Origin: a virus
Lineage: Duplodnaviria; Caudoviricetes
Direction: 5' to 3' (one strand)
IMG/VR virus record: IMGVR_UViG_3300032320_002072
Span: 1-35,643 of that record
Length of the DNA stretch: 35,643 bases
The position numbers and the translations under genes are program-made. The notes under the pieces were generated by a model. The model made no database searches and was not told where the DNA came from. It saw only the letters and a program-made list of their open reading frames with translations. Shown in pieces: positions 8,033 through 35,610 of this stretch (positions are counted from its first letter, which is position 1; each line of letters begins with the position of its first letter).

Positions 8033-9373
8033 ATGTCATTTTGGATAGTAGAAACACAAGATCAATTATCACAACTCCATTCACAAGAGAGTTGTTATAT
8101 TAATGTTATTCCACTGTCATCCAACTACCACCCAATATTAACTAAAGTATCATTAATTTACTATAAACCAAAACATGGTAAAGGATTAATACTAACTATA
8201 AATCATAGTGAAGGATTTTATTTAAGCTTAGAAAAAGTAAAAGAATTTCTTCTAAAACACAAATCAATCTACGTTTTAGATAAAAAAACAACTGCTCATT
8301 TAATAGGGGAAGAATTTTTAGGTGAACATGTTTTAGATGTAAATTTGCTTTCACTATCCACCACCCACACCCCTCCGTATATACAAGATTGCCAAACAAG
8401 CATTCACACTCATTTTGAACGGCTTTATGAAGATAAACCTTATTTAAATTCGATTATCCCAATTTCCAAACACTATGAGACCCAAGAAAAGATATATGAA
8501 AAGATAGTAGATTTTTTAAGTTTAAAAAACTATAACAGCTATTATAACCATGAATATGTTAGGGTGTTCCATGATATCGAGAAACAAGGTATCGCGTTGA
8601 ATATGCCTGTTTTTAGCGAGAATTTCAAGCCTAAAAACGCCAAATTCAACATAAAAGATGATAAAATTTATACTCAATATAACTTGTACAATTTTACCTC
8701 AAGACCTACAAACTCATTTAACGGAATTAACTTTGCGGCCTTAAGTAAAAACAACGGTCAACGAGCTGCTTTTGTATCTCAAAACGATGTTTTATTTGAA
8801 TTTGATTATGATTCGTATCATCCACGTATTTTAGCAAAATTGATTGAATACGAGTTTAATGAGGCCTCTGTTCACACTCACTTGGGAAAAATGTATTTTA
8901 AAACGGAGGAACTAACAGCGGAACAATATCAAACATCTAAAGAATTAACATTTAAACAACTATATGGAGGAGTGTTTGAACAATACAAAGACATACCGTT
9001 TTTTGCTAAAGTGAAAGAATATACAGATAAAATATATCAAGATTTTAATTCCCTGGGATATATAGAGTTGGTTGGAGGGAGAAAATTGTTTGCGCAGGGT
9101 ATTGAAAACGTTACACCTCAAAAACTATTGAATTATATTATACAATCAGGGGAGACTTTTTATAATGTAAACTCGATAAGAAATGTGTTAAGGTATTTGG
9201 AAGGTAAACAAAGTAATATTATATTATACACGTATGATTCGATTTTAGTGGATTATAGTAGAGAAGATGGGAAGGAGGTATTAAAAGAAATAAAGAATTT
9301 ACTAGAGAATGAATTCGGATTTAAAGTAAATGCGAGTTATGGAACAGATTACAATAATTTAAATAAATTATAA
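8033..9373 (+). CDS. Compact family A DNA polymerase-like protein
   Basis: Motif A-like FDYDSYHPRIL, motif B-like SKELTFKQLYGG, motif C-like YTYDSILVD. Confidence 0.75.
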   Translation: MSFWIVETQDQLSQLHSQESCYINVIPLSSNYHPILTKVSLIYYKPKHGKGLILTINHSEGFYLSLEKVKEFLLKHKSIYVLDKKTTAHLIGEEFLGEHVLDVNLLSLSTTHTPPYIQDCQTSIHTHFERLYEDKPYLNSIIPISKHYETQEKIYEKIVDFLSLKNYNSYYNHEYVRVFHDIEKQGIALNMPVFSENFKPKNAKFNIKDDKIYTQYNLYNFTSRPTNSFNGINFAALSKNNGQRAAFVSQNDVLFEFDYDSYHPRILAKLIEYEFNEASVHTHLGKMYFKTEELTAEQYQTSKELTFKQLYGGVFEQYKDIPFFAKVKEYTDKIYQDFNSLGYIELVGGRKLFAQGIENVTPQKLLNYIIQSGETFYNVNSIRNVLRYLEGKQSNIILYTYDSILVDYSREDGKEVLKEIKNLLENEFGFKVNASYGTDYNNLNKL

Positions 9374-17144: not shown

Positions 17145-17393
17145 ATGGGATTTTTTAGTATTTTCAAAAAATCAAATGATTATAACGAAAAAGTTATCAT
17201 TGGTTTTTTATCGTTTGCAGTAATGGTTGCTGCAATTGTAGTTGACCTAGTTACAGGTTACATGGGTAAAGCACTAGAGTTAAATGAATACATCTTCGAT
17301 GCATTTATGTATATAACTTTAGGTAGTTTTCTTCCTGATGTAATTGAAAAGTTTGCTGGTTTTAGAGGAGGAAACAAGTCTAGCAACGAGTAA
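17145..17393 (+). CDS. Small 2-TM membrane protein (holin/antiholin candidate)
   Basis: Two hydrophobic stretches; first gene of the lysis cassette. Confidence 0.55.
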   Translation: MGFFSIFKKSNDYNEKVIIGFLSFAVMVAAIVVDLVTGYMGKALELNEYIFDAFMYITLGSFLPDVIEKFAGFRGGNKSSNE

Positions 17394-17394
17394 A

Positions 17395-18501
17395 ATGAAA
17401 AACTTATCGAAAGAAGAGTTATTAAGTAGACTTGAAGCAATTAATAGAAGTAACGCTATTATATACTTTGATCTTAGTGGTATAATACTGGGAGTTAATG
17501 ACATTTTCTTGGAAGCTATGGGGTATGGTGCAGGCAACCATGAAGAACTTATTGGTAAACATCATAGCACTTTTATATGTGAGGAGTATGCAAGATCACT
17601 TGAATACGAAAAATTCTGGGACATATTAAGAAGCGGCAAATACTACCAGGGAGAATTTGAAAGAAGACGAAAGGATGGAAGTCTTATTAATCTTCAAGCA
17701 ACCTACAATCCTATCTTTGATGATAGTGGTAAGATTACTAAAATAATGAAAATTGCTACTGACATTAGTACTATTGTTAGTAGTAAAAAACAGATAGATG
17801 CTATTAATAGAAGTACAGCTCTTATTAGTTTTAACATTGATGGATTTATAACAGATGCAAATCCTATATTTTTAGAAACTATGGGGTATAAATCCAATGA
17901 AAAAGATAAAGTCATTGGAAAACATCATAGTATTTTTGTAAGCTATGAATATTCAAAGTCTGATGAATATGCTAAATTTTGGGAAAATTTAAGAAAAGGT
18001 ACAATCTTTGATGGAATATTTGAAAGAAGAAAAGTAGATAACTCTATTGTTTATTTACAAGCAACTTATAATCCTGTACTTGATAGTAAAGGAAATATTA
18101 CTGATGTAGTTAAAATCGCTACTGATGTTACTGAAGCGGTAAATAGTAAAAAGAAAATAGATGAGCTTACAGAGAATTTAACAATTGAATTAGAAAACTC
18201 TGAAAAACTTAAAAAATCAATAGAATTAGAAAAGGATACTGCTTTAAATGATTTAGACGTAGTACTAAAAAAGAGTCAAAATGAGTTAATAAAAGTAATT
18301 GTTAAATGTGCTTTAGCAGTTATAGTTGGAGTAGGTGTTGTAACAACTATATTATATTGGTTAGCAATGCTTACAGGTAAGGACACGCAAATTATTGGCT
18401 CAACTTGGTCAAATATGTTTAGTGTTTTATTGACAAATGCATTTTCAATAGTTGGTACAATTATGGGTATTAAATATGCCACACAAGAAAAAACTAATTA
18501 A
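17395..18501 (+). CDS. Tandem PAS-domain protein with a coiled coil and a C-terminal 2-TM hairpin
   Basis: Two repeats AINRS..I.F...G.I...N..FL..MGY...IGKHHS.F...EY..FW..LR.G...G.FER...LQATYNP..D..G.IT...KIATD. The ATG at 17395, right after the upstream stop, is the likely start. Confidence 0.85.
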   Translation: MKNLSKEELLSRLEAINRSNAIIYFDLSGIILGVNDIFLEAMGYGAGNHEELIGKHHSTFICEEYARSLEYEKFWDILRSGKYYQGEFERRRKDGSLINLQATYNPIFDDSGKITKIMKIATDISTIVSSKKQIDAINRSTALISFNIDGFITDANPIFLETMGYKSNEKDKVIGKHHSIFVSYEYSKSDEYAKFWENLRKGTIFDGIFERRKVDNSIVYLQATYNPVLDSKGNITDVVKIATDVTEAVNSKKKIDELTENLTIELENSEKLKKSIELEKDTALNDLDVVLKKSQNELIKVIVKCALAVIVGVGVVTTILYWLAMLTGKDTQIIGSTWSNMFSVLLTNAFSIVGTIMGIKYATQEKTN

Positions 18502-22197: not shown

Positions 22198-22517
22198 TAT
22201 CACTATTAGTAAAATCATCCCCTAGTTCGATTTTTACAAAACAAAACGTATTAGAAATTATTAATTTAATTACAGAACCAGTTATGGAAAAAACAGTAGA
22301 ACAAAAACCTTATATGATGTCATTGTATGACTATTTAGGTAGAGCAGCAGGAAAACAATTAGGATTAGAAGTAGCTGCTACTGCTGCTGCATTAAGAGAA
22401 GTTATTGAAGAAAGATATGTTGAAAATCCTGCTTATAGAGGGAATGTACATTTATATCGTAGAGAATTTTTAGATGAGTATTTTGGAAAAAAAGTATATG
22501 AAGGAGAACAAAAATAA
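22182..22517 (+). CDS. Hypothetical protein
   Basis: 111-aa ORF; alternative GTTATG start at 22284. Confidence 0.6.
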   Translation: MDKKLVSLLVKSSPSSIFTKQNVLEIINLITEPVMEKTVEQKPYMMSLYDYLGRAAGKQLGLEVAATAAALREVIEERYVENPAYRGNVHLYRREFLDEYFGKKVYEGEQK

Positions 22518-23394
22518 GAAACATGTAGTCCTTTCACTGAGTGGGGGCATGGATAGCAGCACTTTATTACTTAGATGTCTAAAAGAGTATGATAGTGTAA
22601 CAGCTATCTCATTTGACTATGGTCAAAAACACAGAGTAGAGCTAGAGAGAGCTCAATCATTAATAAATTATATTAAAGAGGAAACTCCATCACAAACAGA
22701 ATTACGTTATCATCAAATTAAACTAGACGGATTAGTTGATCTACTAGATTCAGCTTTGGTAACAGGAGGTGAAGATGTGCCTGAAGGTCACTATGCAGAA
22801 GATAATATGAAAGCAACAGTTGTTCCTAACAGAAACAAAATATTTGCTTCTATTACTCAAGCAGTAGCTTTATCAGTTGCAAATCGTACAGGAGAGACTT
22901 GTGATATTGCTTTAGGTATTCACGCTGGAGATCATGCAATTTATCCTGATTGTAGACAAGAATTTAGAGATGCAGATGATGCAGCCTTTAGAATTGGGAA
23001 TTGGGAAGCAGAAAAAGTAGGTTATTTTACACCTTACTTGGAAGGAGATAAATTTACTATCTTGCAAGATGGAGAAGTATTATGTAAAGAGTTACTATTA
23101 GATTTTGATGAAGTTTATTCAAGAACTAATACTTCATATAAGCCAATCTTATGGAAATGGACAGGAACAGATAATACCTTATATGAAAAATGGTACTCTG
23201 ATTATAAATCAGCATCTTCAGTAGAACGTATTGAAGCATTTATTAAATTAGGAAGAAAAGATCCAGTTGATTATGCAGACGAAACAGGACCAGTAACATG
23301 GGAGGTAGCAAGAAATGCAGTTCAAAAAGTATTAACAGAACATAGTAAACCAACTGGGGTAAATTCAATGTGGGTTGAAACAAGAACTTTTTAA
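22498..23394 (+). CDS. queC: 7-cyano-7-deazaguanine (preQ0) synthase
   Basis: SLSGGMDS, FDYGQKH, VPNRN and YPDCR motifs; ATG at 22498 preferred as start. Confidence 0.92.
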   Translation: MKENKNKKHVVLSLSGGMDSSTLLLRCLKEYDSVTAISFDYGQKHRVELERAQSLINYIKEETPSQTELRYHQIKLDGLVDLLDSALVTGGEDVPEGHYAEDNMKATVVPNRNKIFASITQAVALSVANRTGETCDIALGIHAGDHAIYPDCRQEFRDADDAAFRIGNWEAEKVGYFTPYLEGDKFTILQDGEVLCKELLLDFDEVYSRTNTSYKPILWKWTGTDNTLYEKWYSDYKSASSVERIEAFIKLGRKDPVDYADETGPVTWEVARNAVQKVLTEHSKPTGVNSMWVETRTF

Positions 23395-23776: not shown

Positions 23777-23924
23777 AGTCAGGTGGCGGAAATAGGTGCT
23801 GATGTACTATTAATAGACGAGGCTTAATATCCTAATGGTAGACGCTCGCAGTCAGATATGTGAATTTGTGCTGACCTCTCAACCATGAGATGACAAAATA
23901 CAGGTTCGAATCCTGTCCTGATTT
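23777..23924 (+). ncRNA. tRNA-like RNA with an expanded D-loop and a non-canonical anticodon region
   Basis: Acceptor stem AGTCAGG/CCTGATT; TGGCGGAA...GGTAGACGC D-arm; perfect T-arm ACAGG-TTCGAAT-CCTGT; 148 nt in total. Confidence 0.75.
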
Positions 23925-24760: not shown

Positions 24761-24818
24761 ATTAAAAAAAGTTCGTATATTAAATAAAAATAAAAGTTAT
24801 TAATTTTAAATCATAGTT

Positions 24819-25730
24819 ATGAAGAATTCGTTATCGTCAAAAGGGTTATCAATGTCTCAAGCACAATCAATCTCTAATTTGTGCAATCAAAGAGCAAAAG
24901 AGATTTCTACTAAGTTAGACAATATCAACAACGTAGAGAAGACTTTATCAATAGGTACTGAAACCTATATTGAAACACAAGGAAATCCTATTCCAGATAA
25001 CGTAGTATACTTACTACAAGAAAAAGCTAGCTTATCTGCTACTCAAGCATTCTTGATGGAAAATATCAAGGCTAAGGATGAACTAATCAATGAGATTAGA
25101 TTTGAGGTATTCGATTATGGTGTAGAAGAGCCACTAAGACCAAAAGAGGTAAGTGAAGTACTTCCAAGTGAAGTAGGAGAAGAATTTGGATGGGATCAAT
25201 TAACTACAGCCGAGTATAACGAATACTTAGAGGCAGAAGCATACGCTTCACATATTGGCCAGTTCATCCATAAGAGAGGAACTCTAGATCGATTAAGAGC
25301 TGAACTTCCAAACATTAAAACTTTGGAGTTTATGGAGATTGAAGTAGGAAAGAAAACTCCACTAAAGGTAACTATTCACCATACTTCGGAGCAATTGCTT
25401 ACTATCCATGAAGAATTAGCTGCCCTACATAGAGGGTATGAGCAAAGAGTAAATTACTTTAAAGCTAAAGTAAAAAATGCTGTAACTTCTGAGAATGCAA
25501 GAATTCAAAGAGAACGAGCTGAAATCCAATCTACAGCAAATGCTGAGAATGAAAAACTACGTAGAGAGTATGCTGATGCTTGTAGCAAATTCTATGAGGA
25601 GAGAAAAAAAGCTTCTCAAGAATTCGAAGCTAAAAGACAGGAAAGAATCCAAGAAGCTGCAAATCTAAAGATTAATGTAGCTGAGAGATTCCAGGGTGTT
25701 ATTGATACGTTCTTGGATCAATTAAAATAA
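24819..25730 (+). CDS. Alpha-helical/coiled-coil hypothetical protein (303 aa)
   Basis: E/K/R/A-rich helical pattern; upstream TTCGTATATTAA motif; GTTATG start. Confidence 0.8.
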   Translation: MKNSLSSKGLSMSQAQSISNLCNQRAKEISTKLDNINNVEKTLSIGTETYIETQGNPIPDNVVYLLQEKASLSATQAFLMENIKAKDELINEIRFEVFDYGVEEPLRPKEVSEVLPSEVGEEFGWDQLTTAEYNEYLEAEAYASHIGQFIHKRGTLDRLRAELPNIKTLEFMEIEVGKKTPLKVTIHHTSEQLLTIHEELAALHRGYEQRVNYFKAKVKNAVTSENARIQRERAEIQSTANAENEKLRREYADACSKFYEERKKASQEFEAKRQERIQEAANLKINVAERFQGVIDTFLDQLK

Positions 25731-25734
25731 TTTG

Positions 25735-26043
25735 GTGCTAAGGAGGTAAGCACAAGCCGATCCTCCAAAGCTTTATGCTGGGATAGTGGAGTCTTTAAAT
25801 ATAAACTATTTGATATCAAATCAATCATATAAAAGACAGAATGGCCCCGTGCCATTTGTAAACTCGCTTCCTTACAAACTTCCAAAACTGAGATAGAACT
25901 CAACCGCTAGACATGTTACTCCTGAGGGAGACTAAAAGTGGCTAACAACTTTGAGACTTAGTTTTTGTCCTTGCCTTTGTGGTAAGGAAGGTCTTTGACC
26001 TTGATTTAGATTTTGGCATAGTCTATATGCTTTACATCCCAGC
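25735..26043 (+). ncRNA. Large structured non-coding RNA candidate
   Basis: Nested helices GCTGGGAT/ATCCCAGC, CTTCCTTAC/GTAAGGAAG, AAAACTGAG/CTTAGTTTT and CTCAA/TTGAG, plus local hairpins; 5' pseudoknot; no sense ORF of note. Confidence 0.75.
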
Positions 26044-26060
26044 GACAAAATCATTAACAA

Positions 26061-26086
26061 AAGGCTTGCTTAGGCAAGCTTTTTTT
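26061..26086 (+). terminator. Intrinsic terminator overlapping the next promoter
   Basis: AAGGCTTGC-TTAG-GCAAGCTTT followed by a T run. Confidence 0.75.
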
Positions 26087-26096
26087 CGTATATTTA
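26065..26096 (+). promoter_or_regulatory. -33/-7 promoter
   Basis: CTTG(26065)-N20-TATATTTA(26089). Confidence 0.6.
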
Positions 26097-28655: not shown

Positions 28656-29117
28656 ATGAAATTTCAATCAACAAAAATATTTGATGGATACTCTACAGTA
28701 TTTCGTCAATGGAGAGCAAAAGATACTCATTGCAGTTTTCTTCATGGTTACGGTATTTCTTTCAAAATTATCTTTGAAGGAGAACTAGATGAAAGAAACT
28801 GGGTATGGGACTTTGGAGGAATGAAAAGAGCTAAGAATAAGATTGATGGTATGAATCCTAAAGCATGGATGGATCATATGTTCGACCATACTTATATCAT
28901 TGCAAAAGATGATCCATTCTTACCAAAAGCATTAGAGATGCACAACGAAGAAATAATCCAACTAAGAATAGTTCCTGCTACAGGAGCAGAACAGTTTGCA
29001 AAATACATTTACGATAAAGTATCTGAATTTATTAAAATAGAAACAGAAGGAAGAGTGAGAGTGGTAAGTGTAGAATTTAAAGAACATAATAAGAATTCAG
29101 CTATATATGGAGAATAA
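28656..29117 (+). CDS. queD: 6-carboxy-5,6,7,8-tetrahydropterin synthase
   Basis: HCSFLHGY, WVWDFG, FDH and TGAE motifs; adjacent to queE. Confidence 0.88.
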   Translation: MKFQSTKIFDGYSTVFRQWRAKDTHCSFLHGYGISFKIIFEGELDERNWVWDFGGMKRAKNKIDGMNPKAWMDHMFDHTYIIAKDDPFLPKALEMHNEEIIQLRIVPATGAEQFAKYIYDKVSEFIKIETEGRVRVVSVEFKEHNKNSAIYGE

Positions 29118-29892
29118 ATTAAAAAGAATTGAAAATTATAACAAAACACTACCAATTGTAGAGCTATACACAGCAGTACAATCAGAAGGAAGTAGAGCAG
29201 GTTATCCAACCGTAGTAGTAAGAACAACAGGATGTACACACCGTTGTTGGTTCGGTGAAGGAGGTTGGTGCGATTCTTGGTACACTTCTATACATCCTGA
29301 AAAAGGACATATCAGTTTCCAAGACATCATAAACATGTATGATGCAAATCCTCACATCACAGAGATGATGTTAACAGGAGGATCACCTACAATGCACCCA
29401 GCATTAGTAAATGAATTAACACATTTTGCACATGATAGAGGAATATTTATTACTATTGAAACCGAAGGGAGTCACTTTTTGGAGACTGATTACCCTATTA
29501 ACTTACTTAGCATTAGTCCTAAATTTAGTAATTCTGTTCCTAAAGTTGGTATATCGACGCCTCAAGGGGACATCGTTGATGAGAAAATGGTTAAGCAACA
29601 TAACAAATTAAGACTTAATTTTGATGCAATATCTAAATCAATTGCTTATCATTCTGATTACCATTTAAAACCAGTATGGGATGGAGAAGACGAAGATACA
29701 TTAGCAGAAATTTTAGGATTAATTAAAGTGCTTGATATACCTCAAGACAAAGTCTGGTTCATGCCATCAGGAGATTCAAGAGAAGCTTTATTTAAATCAT
29801 ATCCTAAAATGTTTGATTGGGTAAGAGATAATGGATATAGATTGACCTGGAGACCACACATCATTGCATTTGAAGATAAAAGAGAAGTATAA
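29107..29892 (+). CDS. queE: 7-carboxy-7-deazaguanine synthase (radical SAM)
   Basis: VQSEG..AG.P.V.VR..GC...C...WCDS, LTGGSP, IETEG and SISPK motifs. Confidence 0.9.
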   Translation: MENKLKRIENYNKTLPIVELYTAVQSEGSRAGYPTVVVRTTGCTHRCWFGEGGWCDSWYTSIHPEKGHISFQDIINMYDANPHITEMMLTGGSPTMHPALVNELTHFAHDRGIFITIETEGSHFLETDYPINLLSISPKFSNSVPKVGISTPQGDIVDEKMVKQHNKLRLNFDAISKSIAYHSDYHLKPVWDGEDEDTLAEILGLIKVLDIPQDKVWFMPSGDSREALFKSYPKMFDWVRDNGYRLTWRPHIIAFEDKREV

Positions 29893-30107
29893 TGAGATTA
29901 AAAGAAGCATATTTAATAGAATTTGATTTACTAAACACTGTATGGTGGTTATGGTGTAATCAAAAAATTAGTATAGGTGATATAAAATTTTATGTAGAGG
30001 ATTTGGATCTCGAATTAGATTTTATTACATTAGACGGATATAAATTTACAAGCAAAGATAAAAAAACAACTTATTCTTATGACAGAAAACAGAAAAAAGA
30101 TTCATAA
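29892..30107 (+). CDS. Hypothetical protein
   Basis: 71-aa ORF with a TAATG overlap with queE. Confidence 0.5.
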   Translation: MRLKEAYLIEFDLLNTVWWLWCNQKISIGDIKFYVEDLDLELDFITLDGYKFTSKDKKTTYSYDRKQKKDS

Positions 30108-30774
30108 CGATTTAGAAATCGTTCCTGTAGGTTATGCAAACGGTGTTGCACCAGGTTTTCCATTTACCGAAAAAGAAAAACAATCTATGATTGAAGATGC
30201 TGCCGAAGCCTATGGTCAATTTTTAGATGCATTAGGTTGCGATTGGAGAAATGACCCAAATTCAGCTGATACTCCAAGACGTGTAGCTAAAGCTTATGTA
30301 AATGATTTATGGAAAGGTAGATATACTCCAATGTCTGAAATTACTTCATTCCCTTCTGATGGTTATGATGGTATTGTAATTGAAAGAAACATTCCGTTAA
30401 CTTCAATGTGTTCACATCACCACCAAACAATTGGAGGAGTAGTTCACGTTGGTTATGTAGTAGGTGAAAATGGTAGAGTAATTGGTTTATCTAAATTAAA
30501 TCGAATTGTAGAACACTTTGGAAGAAGAGGTGCTATCCAAGAACAATTAACTTCAGCTATTCATCAAGCAGTAGATAAAATTTGTGAGAATAATAGAGGT
30601 GTAATTGTTTCTATTGTTGGTACTCACAACTGTGTATCTTGCAGAGGTGTAAAACATCAAGGTGCTTCAATGGTTACTACTAAAGCATCAGGTGTATTTA
30701 TGGAAAATGGAAATTTAGCTCGTGAAGAATTCTTTGATTCAATTAAAATTAATAACGGAACACACCCAGTATAA
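30079..30774 (+). CDS. folE: GTP cyclohydrolase I
   Basis: DTPRRVAK, SMCSHH, IGLSKLNR, IQEQLT and HNCVSCRGV motifs. Confidence 0.95.
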   Translation: MTENRKKIHNDLEIVPVGYANGVAPGFPFTEKEKQSMIEDAAEAYGQFLDALGCDWRNDPNSADTPRRVAKAYVNDLWKGRYTPMSEITSFPSDGYDGIVIERNIPLTSMCSHHHQTIGGVVHVGYVVGENGRVIGLSKLNRIVEHFGRRGAIQEQLTSAIHQAVDKICENNRGVIVSIVGTHNCVSCRGVKHQGASMVTTKASGVFMENGNLAREEFFDSIKINNGTHPV

Positions 30775-32679: not shown

Positions 32680-34410
32680 ATGAGTTATAAAAACATAGTT
32701 ACTACTTCATTAGGTAAAAATAGATACAATGTTACCTTATGGACCGATGATGGAGTAGAACAACATGAATTCCAAAATTATGCTTATGAAGTGTGTAGCC
32801 AAAACCAGGCTACACATTTTGGTCTAAACGGAGAACCTTTAAAGAAAACTACATATTGGGAAGGAAGTAATCCATTTATTCATTATCATGATATGCCTAT
32901 TCATCAAAAATTTCTAATTGATAAGTATGGTATAAATGATGAACCTTCTACTACCCACCAAGAAATATTTTTTGATATTGAGATTGAAATGGGTGGTGCA
33001 CTTACACCTGAATATATTAGAAAAGCACCTAAACCAGTTACCTCAATTGCTTGGTGGCACAAACAAGAAGATAAGTGGTACATCTTAATTTTAGACAAAG
33101 ATAATAAAATTGAAAAAACTACTGTAGGAAATAAACATATTATTCCTGTACCTAATGAAAGAGAACTATTAAATAAATGGTTAAATTATTTAACTAAAGT
33201 TAGTCCTGATATTTTAATTGGTTATAATAGTGATTATTTCGATATACCTTACCTTTATTATAGAATTTTAAATCAATTAGGTGAACGTAGAGCTAATAAT
33301 TTATCTCCAATAGGTAAAGTTAAAGAACAAAAATTCACCAATGAATCAGGAATGACTTTTTGGAATGAAGATCAACCTGTAAGAATTGAAGGTGTATATT
33401 CTTTAGATTATCTTCGTTTACATAAAAAATATTCGTTTGCAGATGAACCCTCTTATAAGTTAGATGCATTAGGAGAAAGATACTGTAAATTATCTAAAAT
33501 TGAATATGAAGGTAGCTTAGACAGATTATTTGAAACTGATAAAGAAAAATTTATTGAGTATAACTTTCGAGATGTTGAAATCTTAAAAGCATTAGACAAC
33601 AAATTTAATTATATTAGTTTAACTAAAAATCTAGCACATAAAGGTAAAATTCACTATGATGATGTTTACCAATCATCTAAAATTCATGATGGTGCTATTT
33701 CAGCCTTCTTATTATCAGAGGGTATAATTCCACCATCTAGAGATAGAAATCCTATTAAAAAGGCTAACTATGCAGGTGGTTATTTATTTTGTCCTAAAGC
33801 TGGTTTATACCGTTACATGTTTGATGAGGATTTAACTTCACTATATCCTTCAATTATTATGTCTCTTAATATTGGTAAAGAAACATTAGTAGGTAGAATT
33901 ATTGATTTTAATGATAGAAATAATCGTTTAGGTTTAATTGATTTAATCAATGATACTGAAGATAAACCTCGTACTACTGAATGGTTTACTAATAAAGATA
34001 AATTTAATAAAATTGATTGGACTTCTTCTAAAATAGTTAAACTACTTCAGCAATATAATTTGGCTATCTCAGCAAATGGTGTTATATTCCGTACGGATAA
34101 AGAGTCCGTATTATCAATTATCTTAAATAAATGGTTTGATGAAAGGGTTTTATATAAAGGTAAAATGAAAAAAGCTTATAAAGCAGGTGATACTGTAGGA
34201 GGTGAAAAATATCATTTATTACAATACACAATGAAAATCTTACTTAATTCACTTTATGGTGCTACAGCATTACCTACATTTAGATATGGAAATGTAATAT
34301 TATCAGAAGCAATTACATTAAGTGGTCAACGTATTATCCAAGAATCAGCACTTTGTGCTAACCGACATATGAACAAAGTAATTAGAGGTGAAATTAAATT
34401 AGAAATATAA
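32680..34410 (+). CDS. Family B DNA polymerase, N-terminal part (exonuclease plus motifs A and B)
   Basis: FFDIE, GYNSDYFDIPY, YNFRD, DLTSLYPSII, KILLNSLYG. Confidence 0.93.
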   Translation: MSYKNIVTTSLGKNRYNVTLWTDDGVEQHEFQNYAYEVCSQNQATHFGLNGEPLKKTTYWEGSNPFIHYHDMPIHQKFLIDKYGINDEPSTTHQEIFFDIEIEMGGALTPEYIRKAPKPVTSIAWWHKQEDKWYILILDKDNKIEKTTVGNKHIIPVPNERELLNKWLNYLTKVSPDILIGYNSDYFDIPYLYYRILNQLGERRANNLSPIGKVKEQKFTNESGMTFWNEDQPVRIEGVYSLDYLRLHKKYSFADEPSYKLDALGERYCKLSKIEYEGSLDRLFETDKEKFIEYNFRDVEILKALDNKFNYISLTKNLAHKGKIHYDDVYQSSKIHDGAISAFLLSEGIIPPSRDRNPIKKANYAGGYLFCPKAGLYRYMFDEDLTSLYPSIIMSLNIGKETLVGRIIDFNDRNNRLGLIDLINDTEDKPRTTEWFTNKDKFNKIDWTSSKIVKLLQQYNLAISANGVIFRTDKESVLSIILNKWFDERVLYKGKMKKAYKAGDTVGGEKYHLLQYTMKILLNSLYGATALPTFRYGNVILSEAITLSGQRIIQESALCANRHMNKVIRGEIKLEI

Positions 34411-34673
34411 TGGCATTAAAAGGACAATCAATTAGAAATGGAGTTACCATTTATGTTAATGGTACTAAAGCTGAAAAACAATTAGTTATTGAGTTATCTG
34501 AAAGTTGGGAAGCTTCACAAGAAAAATTCTTTAAGAAAATGTTACAACAAGGAGGTAAATGTAAAATTAATGGAAACTCATTTGAAATTATTCTTAAAGA
34601 AAGATCTGATATAGACTCAAAAGGTAATAGACCAGTTAATTTACCACCAGTACCAGGAGAAAGAACATTTTAA
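34410..34673 (+). CDS. 87-aa hypothetical protein inserted between the polymerase halves
   Basis: TAATG overlap upstream and a 1-nt gap downstream. Confidence 0.65.
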   Translation: MALKGQSIRNGVTIYVNGTKAEKQLVIELSESWEASQEKFFKKMLQQGGKCKINGNSFEIILKERSDIDSKGNRPVNLPPVPGERTF

Positions 34674-34674
34674 T

Positions 34675-35610
34675 ATGAAGCATTTAGAAGATACTCCATG
34701 GTGGATATGTGATGAAGGTGATTTTAACTTTTGCGCCTATGTGGATACAGACTCTAATTACTTTAATGCTGAACCACTTTTAAAATACCTATACCCTGAT
34801 TTTGATGAAAAATCTGATCAGGAAAAAGATGATTTATTAGAGAAAGTAGCTCTTAAGTATCAAGACATTATAACAGAACATTATAATACACTTGCTAGGG
34901 AAGCCTTTAATATTAATACACACCGTCTAGAAATGAAAACTGAGTGTGTTATTCGTTCTGCTTATTTTAGAGCTACAAGACGTTATGCTCAATGGATTAC
35001 TAAAAAAGAGGGTATATCAAAGGAAGAACTTGATATTAAAGGATTAGAGTTTAAAAAAGCTAATTTTCCTAAATACTTTGGTAAGTTTTATCAAGAAATT
35101 CTTGAATTAATTATTAAAGGTACTCCACAAAATATTGTAGATAAAAAAATTCATGAATTTAGACAAGAAGCAACTTCATCTGATGTTGATTTTACTTTAA
35201 TTGGTAATCCAACCTCAGTTAAAACATTAAATGAATATGTTGCATCACATCCTAAACCTGGTAAGATATTATCTGAAATAAAGCCTGGAGCAGGTGCATC
35301 TGTTAAAGCATCTATTAAACACAATGATTTATTAAGATTTTGGCAGTTAGATTCTAAACATAGTCAAATTGTACAAGGCGACAAAGTAAAATGGGTTTAT
35401 CTAAAAAACAATCCTTATAATATAGAAGCAATTGCTTTTTTAGAATTTGATCTTTCAGACAAAATTAGAGATTTTATCAATGAGTACATTGATAGAGGTA
35501 AAAGTTTTGAAACTATATTACAAAATAAATTACAAGGTTTCTATGATGACTTAGAATGGTCATTACCACCTGCAAACCCATTAATACATAAATTCTTTAC
35601 ATTCTCATAA
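34675..35610 (+). CDS. Family B DNA polymerase, C-terminal part (motif C and thumb)
   Basis: YVDTDS, RRYA and IKGLE motifs. Confidence 0.92.
   Translation: MKHLEDTPWWICDEGDFNFCAYVDTDSNYFNAEPLLKYLYPDFDEKSDQEKDDLLEKVALKYQDIITEHYNTLAREAFNINTHRLEMKTECVIRSAYFRATRRYAQWITKKEGISKEELDIKGLEFKKANFPKYFGKFYQEILELIIKGTPQNIVDKKIHEFRQEATSSDVDFTLIGNPTSVKTLNEYVASHPKPGKILSEIKPGAGASVKASIKHNDLLRFWQLDSKHSQIVQGDKVKWVYLKNNPYNIEAIAFLEFDLSDKIRDFINEYIDRGKSFETILQNKLQGFYDDLEWSLPPANPLIHKFFTFS

What the first reader, a model, noticed from the sequence alone, without database searches (positions are those of the whole stretch)
24819..26086. Helical protein gene followed by a ~310-nt multi-helix RNA: candidate ribonucleoprotein system
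Seen: a 303-aa helical ORF, then ~330 nt with no credible sense ORF in an otherwise tightly packed genome, then a terminator. The region is GC-richer than its surroundings and pairs in nested fashion. The closing stem is GCTGGGAT 25777-84/ATCCCAGC 26036-43, extended by GTGGAG/CTTTAC with G-U pairs. Inner helices are CTTCCTTAC 25867-75/GTAAGGAAG 25982-90, AAAACTGAG 25884-92/CTTAGTTTT 25957-65, CTCAA/TTGAG and CCGCT/AGTGG. Local hairpins include GTCTTT..AAAGAC (with an ATTTGATATCAAAT palindrome), AATGGC/GCCATT and CTCC-TGAG-GGAG. The G-U pairs point to RNA on the + strand. Inference: protein and RNA are co-transcribed and may act together. I do not recognise the RNA family.
Basis: partly seen in the sequence, partly recalled or inferred. 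Interest (0 to 1): 0.85.

Follow-up and report, generated by a model that had tools for sequence, protein, structure and literature searches.

The report
New phage RNA–protein pair, possibly circular
A folded RNA of about 325 bases, absent from the RNA family catalogue, follows one unknown protein gene in every complete phage or bacterial locus examined; environmental RNA assemblies hold it as a separate piece, twice joined end to end, and it likely docks several copies of the protein on two rows of six-base repeats, possibly to keep protein synthesis running during infection.

Summary
Confirmed and extended. The region 25727-26050 is a conserved, covarying noncoding RNA: the ten best-covarying pairs in 57 homologues are all canonical. 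It matches no Rfam family, and the 303-aa protein has no family or clear fold match. They co-occur both ways: RNA in 77 of 80 protein loci, protein in 75 of 77 RNA loci, all misses truncated. The scan noted this pair and its rows on other genomes before (4 notes); no paper was found. Found here: the same plan in gut ~97-kb phages and in Capnocytophaga chromosomes. Metatranscriptome contigs start at the predicted 5' end in 3 of 8 runs, with a head-to-tail junction in 2 of 8. Neighbours are often tRNA arrays and RNA end-repair genes, and one lineage carries a YrlA-like tRNA mimic inside the RNA. Best reading: a processed, stable RNA coated by protein copies along the rows, acting as scaffold or decoy for translation. 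Binding, circularity and function are untested.

The parts
24773..24783 (+). Promoter-like motif TCGTATATTAA before the ORF; resembles the Bacteroidota -7 element (recalled)
   Evidence: 6 copies in the window, all on +, against 0.5 expected; none between ORF and RNA
24819..25730 (+). 303-aa protein: helical bundle with two beta-hairpins and a 93-residue helix; no family
   Evidence: AlphaFold pLDDT 94, pTM 0.87; no clear fold match (62-64)
25727..26050 (+). The noncoding RNA, about 325 nt; in this clade its 5' end overlaps the stop codon
   Evidence: covariation; contigs of relatives start at 25727-25728 in runs X1, X3, X19
25731..26049 (+). P1: outer stem joining both ends (25731-36 with 26045-49), bulged G34, followed by a U/A-rich tail
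   Evidence: 25733:26047 paired 57/57, score 80.4 against null maximum 65.0 (28); tail composition
25737..25771 (+). P2: 5' hairpin capped by a GC-ANAA-GC mini-hairpin
   Evidence: 146/171 and 238/285 cells paired, all 8 pairs with two-sided change
25777..26043 (+). P3: long closing stem (25777-91 with 26030-43)
   Evidence: 14 of 14 pairs with two-sided change
25840..25856 (+). P4: variable hairpin; in L299/L300 a permuted tRNA-like (YrlA-like) module sits at about this place
25867..25990 (+). P5: inner stem (25867-75 with 25982-90) separating the two rows
25884..25965 (+). P6: 25884-92 with 25957-65; conserved, little covariation, alternative local hairpin 25889-25902
25906..25946 (+). P7: covarying stem with a variable apical hairpin
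   Evidence: four of the eight best pairs; 442/511 (96)
25964..25981 (+). Row 1: three hexamers nUUGnY
25994..26023 (+). Row 2: five hexamers nUUGnY, then near-invariant UAU
26060..26096 (+). Terminator-like hairpin with U run, abutting the next gene's promoter-like motif; outside the mature RNA

Best explanation
The gene encodes a helical protein of no known family and is followed by a conserved folded RNA that is likely cut out of the same transcript at the base of its terminal stem, probably accumulates as a stable and possibly ligated molecule, and is predicted to bind several copies of the protein, one per hexamer along its 3+5 rows, forming a particle that would act as a scaffold or decoy protecting translation during infection. 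Shown: structure by covariation, two-way co-occurrence, conserved 3+5 rows, non-coding pattern of the rows, contigs that match the predicted unit, a head-to-tail junction in two runs, frequent tRNA and RNA-repair neighbours. Inferred: processing from the mRNA, protein binding to the rows, stoichiometry near eight, ligation by the phage Rnl-type ligase, and the role (working like Ro60 with Y RNA: a protein holds the RNA while variable arms engage nucleases or repair enzymes). My odds by step: real discrete RNA partnered with this gene 0.9; protein copies bind the rows 0.65; true circular form 0.4; translation-protecting scaffold or decoy 0.3.
For: Covariation: ten best pairs all canonical, four above the largest of 40 tree-based null maxima, eight at E about 0.12 or less. 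Co-occurrence: 77 of 80, 75 of 77, and 33 of 35 distinct further loci (most of them distant) have the rows within 450 nt, above the best of 20 shuffles; the other two have them about 590 nt on. Rows are conserved in sequence (U 97% at position 2, G 91% at position 4) but have no covarying partner, as protein-read sites would. The RNA stays when extra genes come between it and the ORF (12 of 56). Single contigs of 360, 311 and 358 nt cover 25727-26048, 25728-26036 and 25728-26048 in runs X1, X3, X19, at depth 320, 96 and 103; gene contigs are at 8.2 or less in X1 and 4.3 or less in X3, none in X19 (contig depth is a poor measure of expression). Junction from 26048 back to 25727/25728 in X1 and X19. 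tRNA or tmRNA genes in 48 of 60 loci; phosphoesterase, kinase, ligase, cREC, HAD or Ro60 genes within 3 kb in 33 of 56; PF09414 ligase in 4 of 4 genomes of the window's clade; YrlA-like module inside the RNA of L300.
Against: No binding, knock-out or raw-read data. No junction in 6 of 8 runs; X3 carries the same variant letters as X1 and shows none; in X12 one contig runs straight through the RNA into both flanks at gene-like depth. X1 and X19 share year and habitat and may be one campaign or protocol, so template switching across the paired ends is open. Runs were chosen for sharing words with this stretch, which favours the conserved RNA. Single-sequence folding pairs the rows loosely with the A-rich 5' linkers (mean unpaired probability 0.2-0.7). 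The protein is net acidic (-9). Context is not universal: repair genes in only 15 of 34 more distant loci and none in the window; tRNA genes in 2 of 18 very distant loci with short flanks (Rfam adds two); no PF09414 or PF09511 ligase or RtcB in the one gut phage genome searched; the Capnocytophaga copies sit among metabolic genes. No background rate for these neighbours was computed and many loci are close kin.
Confidence: 0.5

Rival explanations
1. Cis-acting 3' element: protein copies wrap the rows in their own mRNA, as TRAP does on its repeat array (recalled), and control termination, stability or translation of the operon.
For: The stop codon lies 3-16 nt before P1 in 44 of 56 loci; P6 has two exclusive pairings that could switch; a U-rich tail follows P1.
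Against: Extra genes separate ORF and RNA in 12 of 56 loci; downstream genes differ; RNA-library contigs hold the RNA as its own deep piece.
Confidence: 0.15
2. Toxin held by an RNA antidote, as in type III toxin-antitoxin pairs (recalled): the protein is a host-takeover or abortive-infection effector and each hexamer silences one subunit.
For: Strict two-way co-occurrence; RNA contigs far deeper than gene contigs; chromosomal copies in Capnocytophaga; conserved polar residues N20, K86, H151, R160, H204, E208, N212, K215 (67) could be an active site.
Against: No toxin or nuclease family hit; one RNA copy downstream, not a repeat array upstream; kept by large, apparently lytic phages.
Confidence: 0.12
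3. RNA-led particle like ROOL or GOLLD: the rows mediate RNA-RNA assembly and the protein is only a chaperone or maturase.
For: Phage-borne, near tRNA islands like ROOL and GOLLD (passages); rows conserved without a canonical partner.
Against: Much smaller, no Rfam match, never found without the protein.
Confidence: 0.1
4. Programmable guide with a noncontiguous code like VIPR: UUG is held by the protein and the other three bases read a target.
For: Fixed triplet alternating with variable bases; 50 different row-2 strings among 57 RNAs.
Against: The variable positions are constrained (position 6 pyrimidine 83%, position 1 U 75%) and position-specific; one RNA per locus; rows nearly constant within the gut clade; the model has no RRM core.
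Confidence: 0.07
5. The rows encode a peptide (tmRNA-like tag or small ORF), since six bases are two codons.
For: Each row reads as alternating hydrophobic and small or acidic residues.
Against: Row spacing is 37, 38 or 39 nt (24/32/1 of 57), so no shared frame; the would-be wobble base is an invariant U in four columns while first positions vary; no conserved start; no tmRNA call.
Confidence: 0.03

Closest known systems
Ro60 with Y RNA / YrlA (PMC4201824, passages read)
   Same: RNA closed by a 5'/3' stem with large internal loops, encoded beside its protein, in phages and bacteria; Ro60 is a neighbour in 5 of 56 loci; one lineage holds a YrlA-like module (123).
   Different: 255-400 nt against 80-130; protein is not a TROVE/vWA ring; hexamer rows; no tRNA-like domain or YrlA match in the window.
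VIPR systems (bioRxiv 10.64898/2026.04.26.720920, first sixth of the text read)
   Same: Phage gene with an adjacent RNA whose fixed triplet recurs in phase; protein copies along the RNA are predicted here, shown there.
   Different: Period 6 (UUG) against 5 (GGY/NN); constrained not hypervariable spacers; single RNA with rows inside a multi-helix fold; helical protein, not a RAMP.
ROOL and GOLLD RNAs (bioRxiv 10.1101/2024.12.08.627333, passages read)
   Same: Large phage RNAs of unknown function near tRNA islands.
   Different: No Rfam match, smaller, obligately linked to one protein gene.
DucS and circular omega-RNAs (PMC10504365 passages; PMC12558985 abstract)
   Same: Prokaryotic noncoding RNAs with linear and circular forms, first seen as permuted reads with variable junctions.
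   Different: Unrelated sequence and partner; circularity here rests on two assembled contigs only.
TRAP on (G/U)AG repeats (recalled; named in earlier scan notes)
   Same: Oligomer reading a phased triplet array.
   Different: TRAP is a small beta protein acting on a 5' leader; here a 300-aa helical protein and a downstream discrete RNA.

Membership tests
Any Rfam 15 family | Match at gathering score | tested here: not met
   window, gut homologue, 14 distant loci: none over the RNA except a sub-threshold YrlA match in L300
Y RNA / YrlA | 80-130 nt | tested here: not met
   about 325 nt (28, 69); size from PMC4201824 passage
Y RNA / YrlA | tRNA-like domain | tested here: not met
   none in the window RNA; present in L299/L300 only, 30.3 bits against 69
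Y RNA / YrlA | Encoded next to Ro60 | tested here: not met
   5 of 56 loci, not the window
Y RNA / YrlA | Bound by Ro60 | not testable with these tools
   needs pull-down
VIPR | RAMP protein with RRM core | tested here: not met
   confident model is helices plus two beta-hairpins, no RRM order of elements
VIPR | 9-16 GGY/NN pentamers with hypervariable NN | tested here: not met
   3+5 nUUGnY hexamers, constrained; definition
VIPR | RNA-guided DNA binding | not testable with these tools
   needs biochemistry
ROOL / GOLLD | Near phage tRNA islands | tested here: met
   48 of 60 loci; weaker in distant loci
ROOL / GOLLD | Family model match and size | tested here: not met
   GOLLD often over 800 nt (100)
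tmRNA | tRNA-like ends and conserved tag frame | tested here: not met
   ARAGORN none; frame not kept
Type III toxin-antitoxin (recalled) | ToxN/CptN/TenpN-type toxin and upstream tandem RNA repeats | tested here: not met
   no Pfam or NCBIfam hit; single downstream RNA
Type III toxin-antitoxin (recalled) | Toxicity relieved by the RNA | not testable with these tools
   needs expression
Any solved protein fold | Structural match | tested here: inconclusive
   Foldseek none at E 0.001 (62); best VIA Z 7.2, rmsd 8.3, 139 aligned

The most novel reading that the evidence does not exclude
A widespread phage and Bacteroidota system in which an RNA is excised from its partner's mRNA, sealed into a covalent circle by an RNA ligase and loaded with about eight copies of a new-fold protein in a six-base register: an end-less, nuclease-resistant particle with swappable arms (a tRNA mimic in one lineage) that counters host RNA-cleaving defences.
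Probability: 0.2. Interest if true: 0.93.

Novelty: categorically new. Interest (0 to 1): 0.83.

Why it matters
Few large bacterial or phage RNAs have a dedicated protein partner, and few circular RNAs are known in bacteria. This pair has thousands of protein homologues, spans aquatic large phages, gut ~97-kb phages and Capnocytophaga chromosomes, keeps a 3+5 hexamer design at about 25% protein identity, and shows as a deep, discrete contig in natural RNA data. An identical protein in Capnocytophaga sputigena genome records makes it testable in a cultured bacterium. A six-base protein-RNA register on a new fold could also serve as an RNA-packaging or tethering tool.

Tried and rejected
Complex prediction with three copies gave no verdict (score 0.20, mark 0.42); it counts neither way. 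No match in PHROGs, Pfam, NCBIfam, PDB sequences, Foldseek PDB or VIA; BFVD gave one uncharacterised homologue; the Atlas gave unnamed clusters only. The two helix/hairpin/helix halves do not align as profiles (probability 0.3%); halves were not folded separately. My first idea of a 5' H-type pseudoknot and readthrough signal fell: the segment is a hairpin plus the P1 strand, and the RNA is kept when other genes intervene. Row-to-row pairing: GCCTT/AAGGT can pair (268/285) but has 1 of 5 two-sided changes and competes with covarying P5. No run of four strict hexamers elsewhere in the window or in four 20-kb regions; that strict pattern also missed the RNAs' own rows in those regions, so it is a weak test. 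A genomic tandem duplication as source of the junction is unlikely: one copy per locus and junctions differing by 2 nt. No GenBank phage record hit by the window protein; two records through distant homologues. The species-genome scan gave 5 MAG contigs and missed Capnocytophaga, so it is not a census. One helix was mis-indexed (CTCAA/TTGAG) and redone. Parts of the outputs were cut from view. Literature: searches found no description. In PMC8040213 supplement 2, none of 21 'Aldose_epim' places was a Capnocytophaga row; its files 7 and 8 were not searched, some cells were cut, and bioRxiv supplements are closed, so a fragment may be listed there. PMC12513839 (passages) was irrelevant.

Full report
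Setting. The window is a 22%-complete linear virus record with T4-like replication, lysis and 7-deazaguanine genes. A motif TCGTATATTWA occurs six times on + against 0.5 expected; it resembles the Bacteroidota promoter element (recalled). One copy lies before the 303-aa ORF, none between ORF and RNA.

Observation. ORF, gap, raised GC and folding are real. Rfam has nothing over the region. The protein has 2565 homologues among 3691 candidates and 500 representatives at 50% identity, but no family. AlphaFold on 148 sequences gives pLDDT 94: helix, beta-hairpin, helix twice, then a 93-residue helix. Fold searches show only generic bundles and one uncharacterised phage homologue.

Conservation. 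Of 155 viral loci the best 80 were kept. The RNA was found once, on +, in 77 of 80; the three misses end inside the gene. Three truncated RNAs were dropped and the rest thinned at 95% to 57 sequences with the window, mean identity 61%. A G-test with average-product correction and a tree-based null of my own (40 replicates; not R-scape) put canonical pairs in the first ten ranks, four above the largest null value. They define P1 (ends paired, bulged G), P2, P3 and P7; P5 is nearly fully paired with changes. Searching from the RNA side, 75 of 77 loci have the gene upstream on the same strand; the other two hold 12 and 47 nt upstream (many loci overlap the first set). The stop codon is 3-16 nt before P1 in 44 of 56 loci; in 12 other genes intervene.

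The rows. On the 3' strand, either side of P5, lie three and five hexamers: position 2 U 97%, position 3 U 83%, position 4 G 91%, position 6 pyrimidine 83%. Earlier scan notes pointed me to them. They are not coding: spacing 37/38/39 nt in 24/32/1 RNAs and an invariant U at the would-be wobble base in four columns. They have no covarying partner, though single sequences fold them loosely against A-rich linkers.

Reach. A homologue in GenBank PQ006092 and 33 full-length gut-type loci, mostly from 50-100 kb phage contigs (27% identical to the window protein), carry a ~255-nt RNA with the same plan. Of 46 further loci, 4 were too short and 7 duplicates; 33 of the remaining 35 have the 3+5 rows within 450 nt above the best of 20 shuffles, and two have them about 590 nt on. 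In L312 and L317 the pair lies between an aldose epimerase-like gene and, in L317, a peptidase-like gene (names by my reading). The L312 protein is identical to Capnocytophaga sputigena records such as ATA69570.1 and matches the family profile at 99.9%. Its RNA folds at z -3.5; in 11 sequences of this clade 315 of 327 cells pair, 12 of 30 pairs with two-sided change. In L299/L300 the RNA contains a permuted tRNA-like module (YrlA model 30.3 bits, gathering score 69).

RNA libraries. Twenty runs held 5-15% of a 2.2-kb stretch; eight were laid, all as assembled contigs of relatives. X1 has one 360-nt contig on 25727-26048 at depth 320 that returns to its start with six T between; a gene contig at depth 8.2 ends 30 nt inside the RNA. 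X19 has a 358-nt contig at depth 103 with the joint 26048 to 25728, five T between and 82 letters on the short side. The implied circles are 330 and 328 nt; a T run follows P1 in the DNA of similar loci (L003, L005, L006). X3 has a linear contig 25728-26036 at depth 96. X2, X4, X8 and X16 hold the RNA in pieces deeper than gene pieces. X12 runs through it into both flanks at depth 5. Contigs show neither strand nor level, X1 and X19 may be one campaign, and template switching is not excluded; RNase R and junction probes are the accepted tests (PMC10504365, PMC11888127, passages).

Neighbourhood. tRNA or tmRNA genes lie in 48 of 60 loci, usually as an array just upstream, but in only 2 of 18 distant loci with short flanks. 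Phosphoesterase, AAA_33 kinase, RNA ligase, cREC, HAD_SAK or Ro60 genes lie within 3 kb in 33 of 56 loci, 15 of 34 below 66% identity, none in the window. A PF09414 ligase is in 4 of 5 genomes searched, all but the gut phage; RtcB in 0 of 5. No background was computed.

Mechanism. I infer one transcript, cut at the base of P1, leaving a stable RNA whose ends are held together and may be ligated. Protein copies would read one UUG unit each, about eight in all, with conserved Asn, Gln, His, Lys and Arg on the helices as candidates. The variable arms would do the work; the tRNA mimic in one lineage and the neighbours suggest a scaffold or decoy in the fight over tRNA and translation. This last step is the weakest (0.3). 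Rivals are a cis element, a toxin-antidote pair, an RNA-led particle, a guide and a peptide template.

Novelty. It works in outline like Ro60 with Y RNA and, in register, like VIPR or TRAP, but fails the defining features of each that I could test. Eight searches found no description; subscription journals and some supplements were out of reach. The scan had noted the pair on four other genomes; I saw only their summaries, which do not mention the junction, the Capnocytophaga copy or the YrlA-like insert. Verdict: categorically new, interest 0.83.

Noticed in passing
window 23779-23922 (+): tRNA-like element with a 7-bp acceptor-like stem, D-arm and T-arm motifs and large insertions, missed by ARAGORN and Rfam; cloverleaf-like fold but z 0.08 (106). 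It sits where relatives have tRNA arrays; the ORF called at 23890 probably starts later.
   Followed up: partly
window 25727-25730: The RNA's apparent 5' end overlaps the ORF's stop codon, so excision would leave a non-stop mRNA in this clade; in most other loci the stop lies just outside P1.
   Followed up: partly
L299/L300, L300 2458-2558: Permuted tRNA-like (YrlA-like) module inside the RNA, joined through its anticodon-like stem.
   Followed up: partly
L049, L060, L066, L070, L083 (after the RNA), L057 (upstream): Phage Ro60/TROVE gene next to the pair; no Y RNA search was run there.
   Followed up: partly
L088 1175-1560, L111 1204-1586: Phage tmRNA genes upstream of the pair in the gut clade (84).
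   Followed up: no
L053, L059, L060: tRNAs with anticodon TTA (ochre suppressor-like calls) upstream of the gene (84).
   Followed up: no
window 22474-23394, 28656-30774: QueC, QueD, QueE-like and FolE genes: 7-deazaguanine pathway, likely DNA modification.
   Followed up: no
window 17344-18501: PAS-domain protein beside the endolysin and holin genes, unusual in a phage.
   Followed up: no
window 8033-9373, 32680-35610: Both a family A polymerase-like ORF and a family B polymerase apparently split over two or three ORFs.
   Followed up: no
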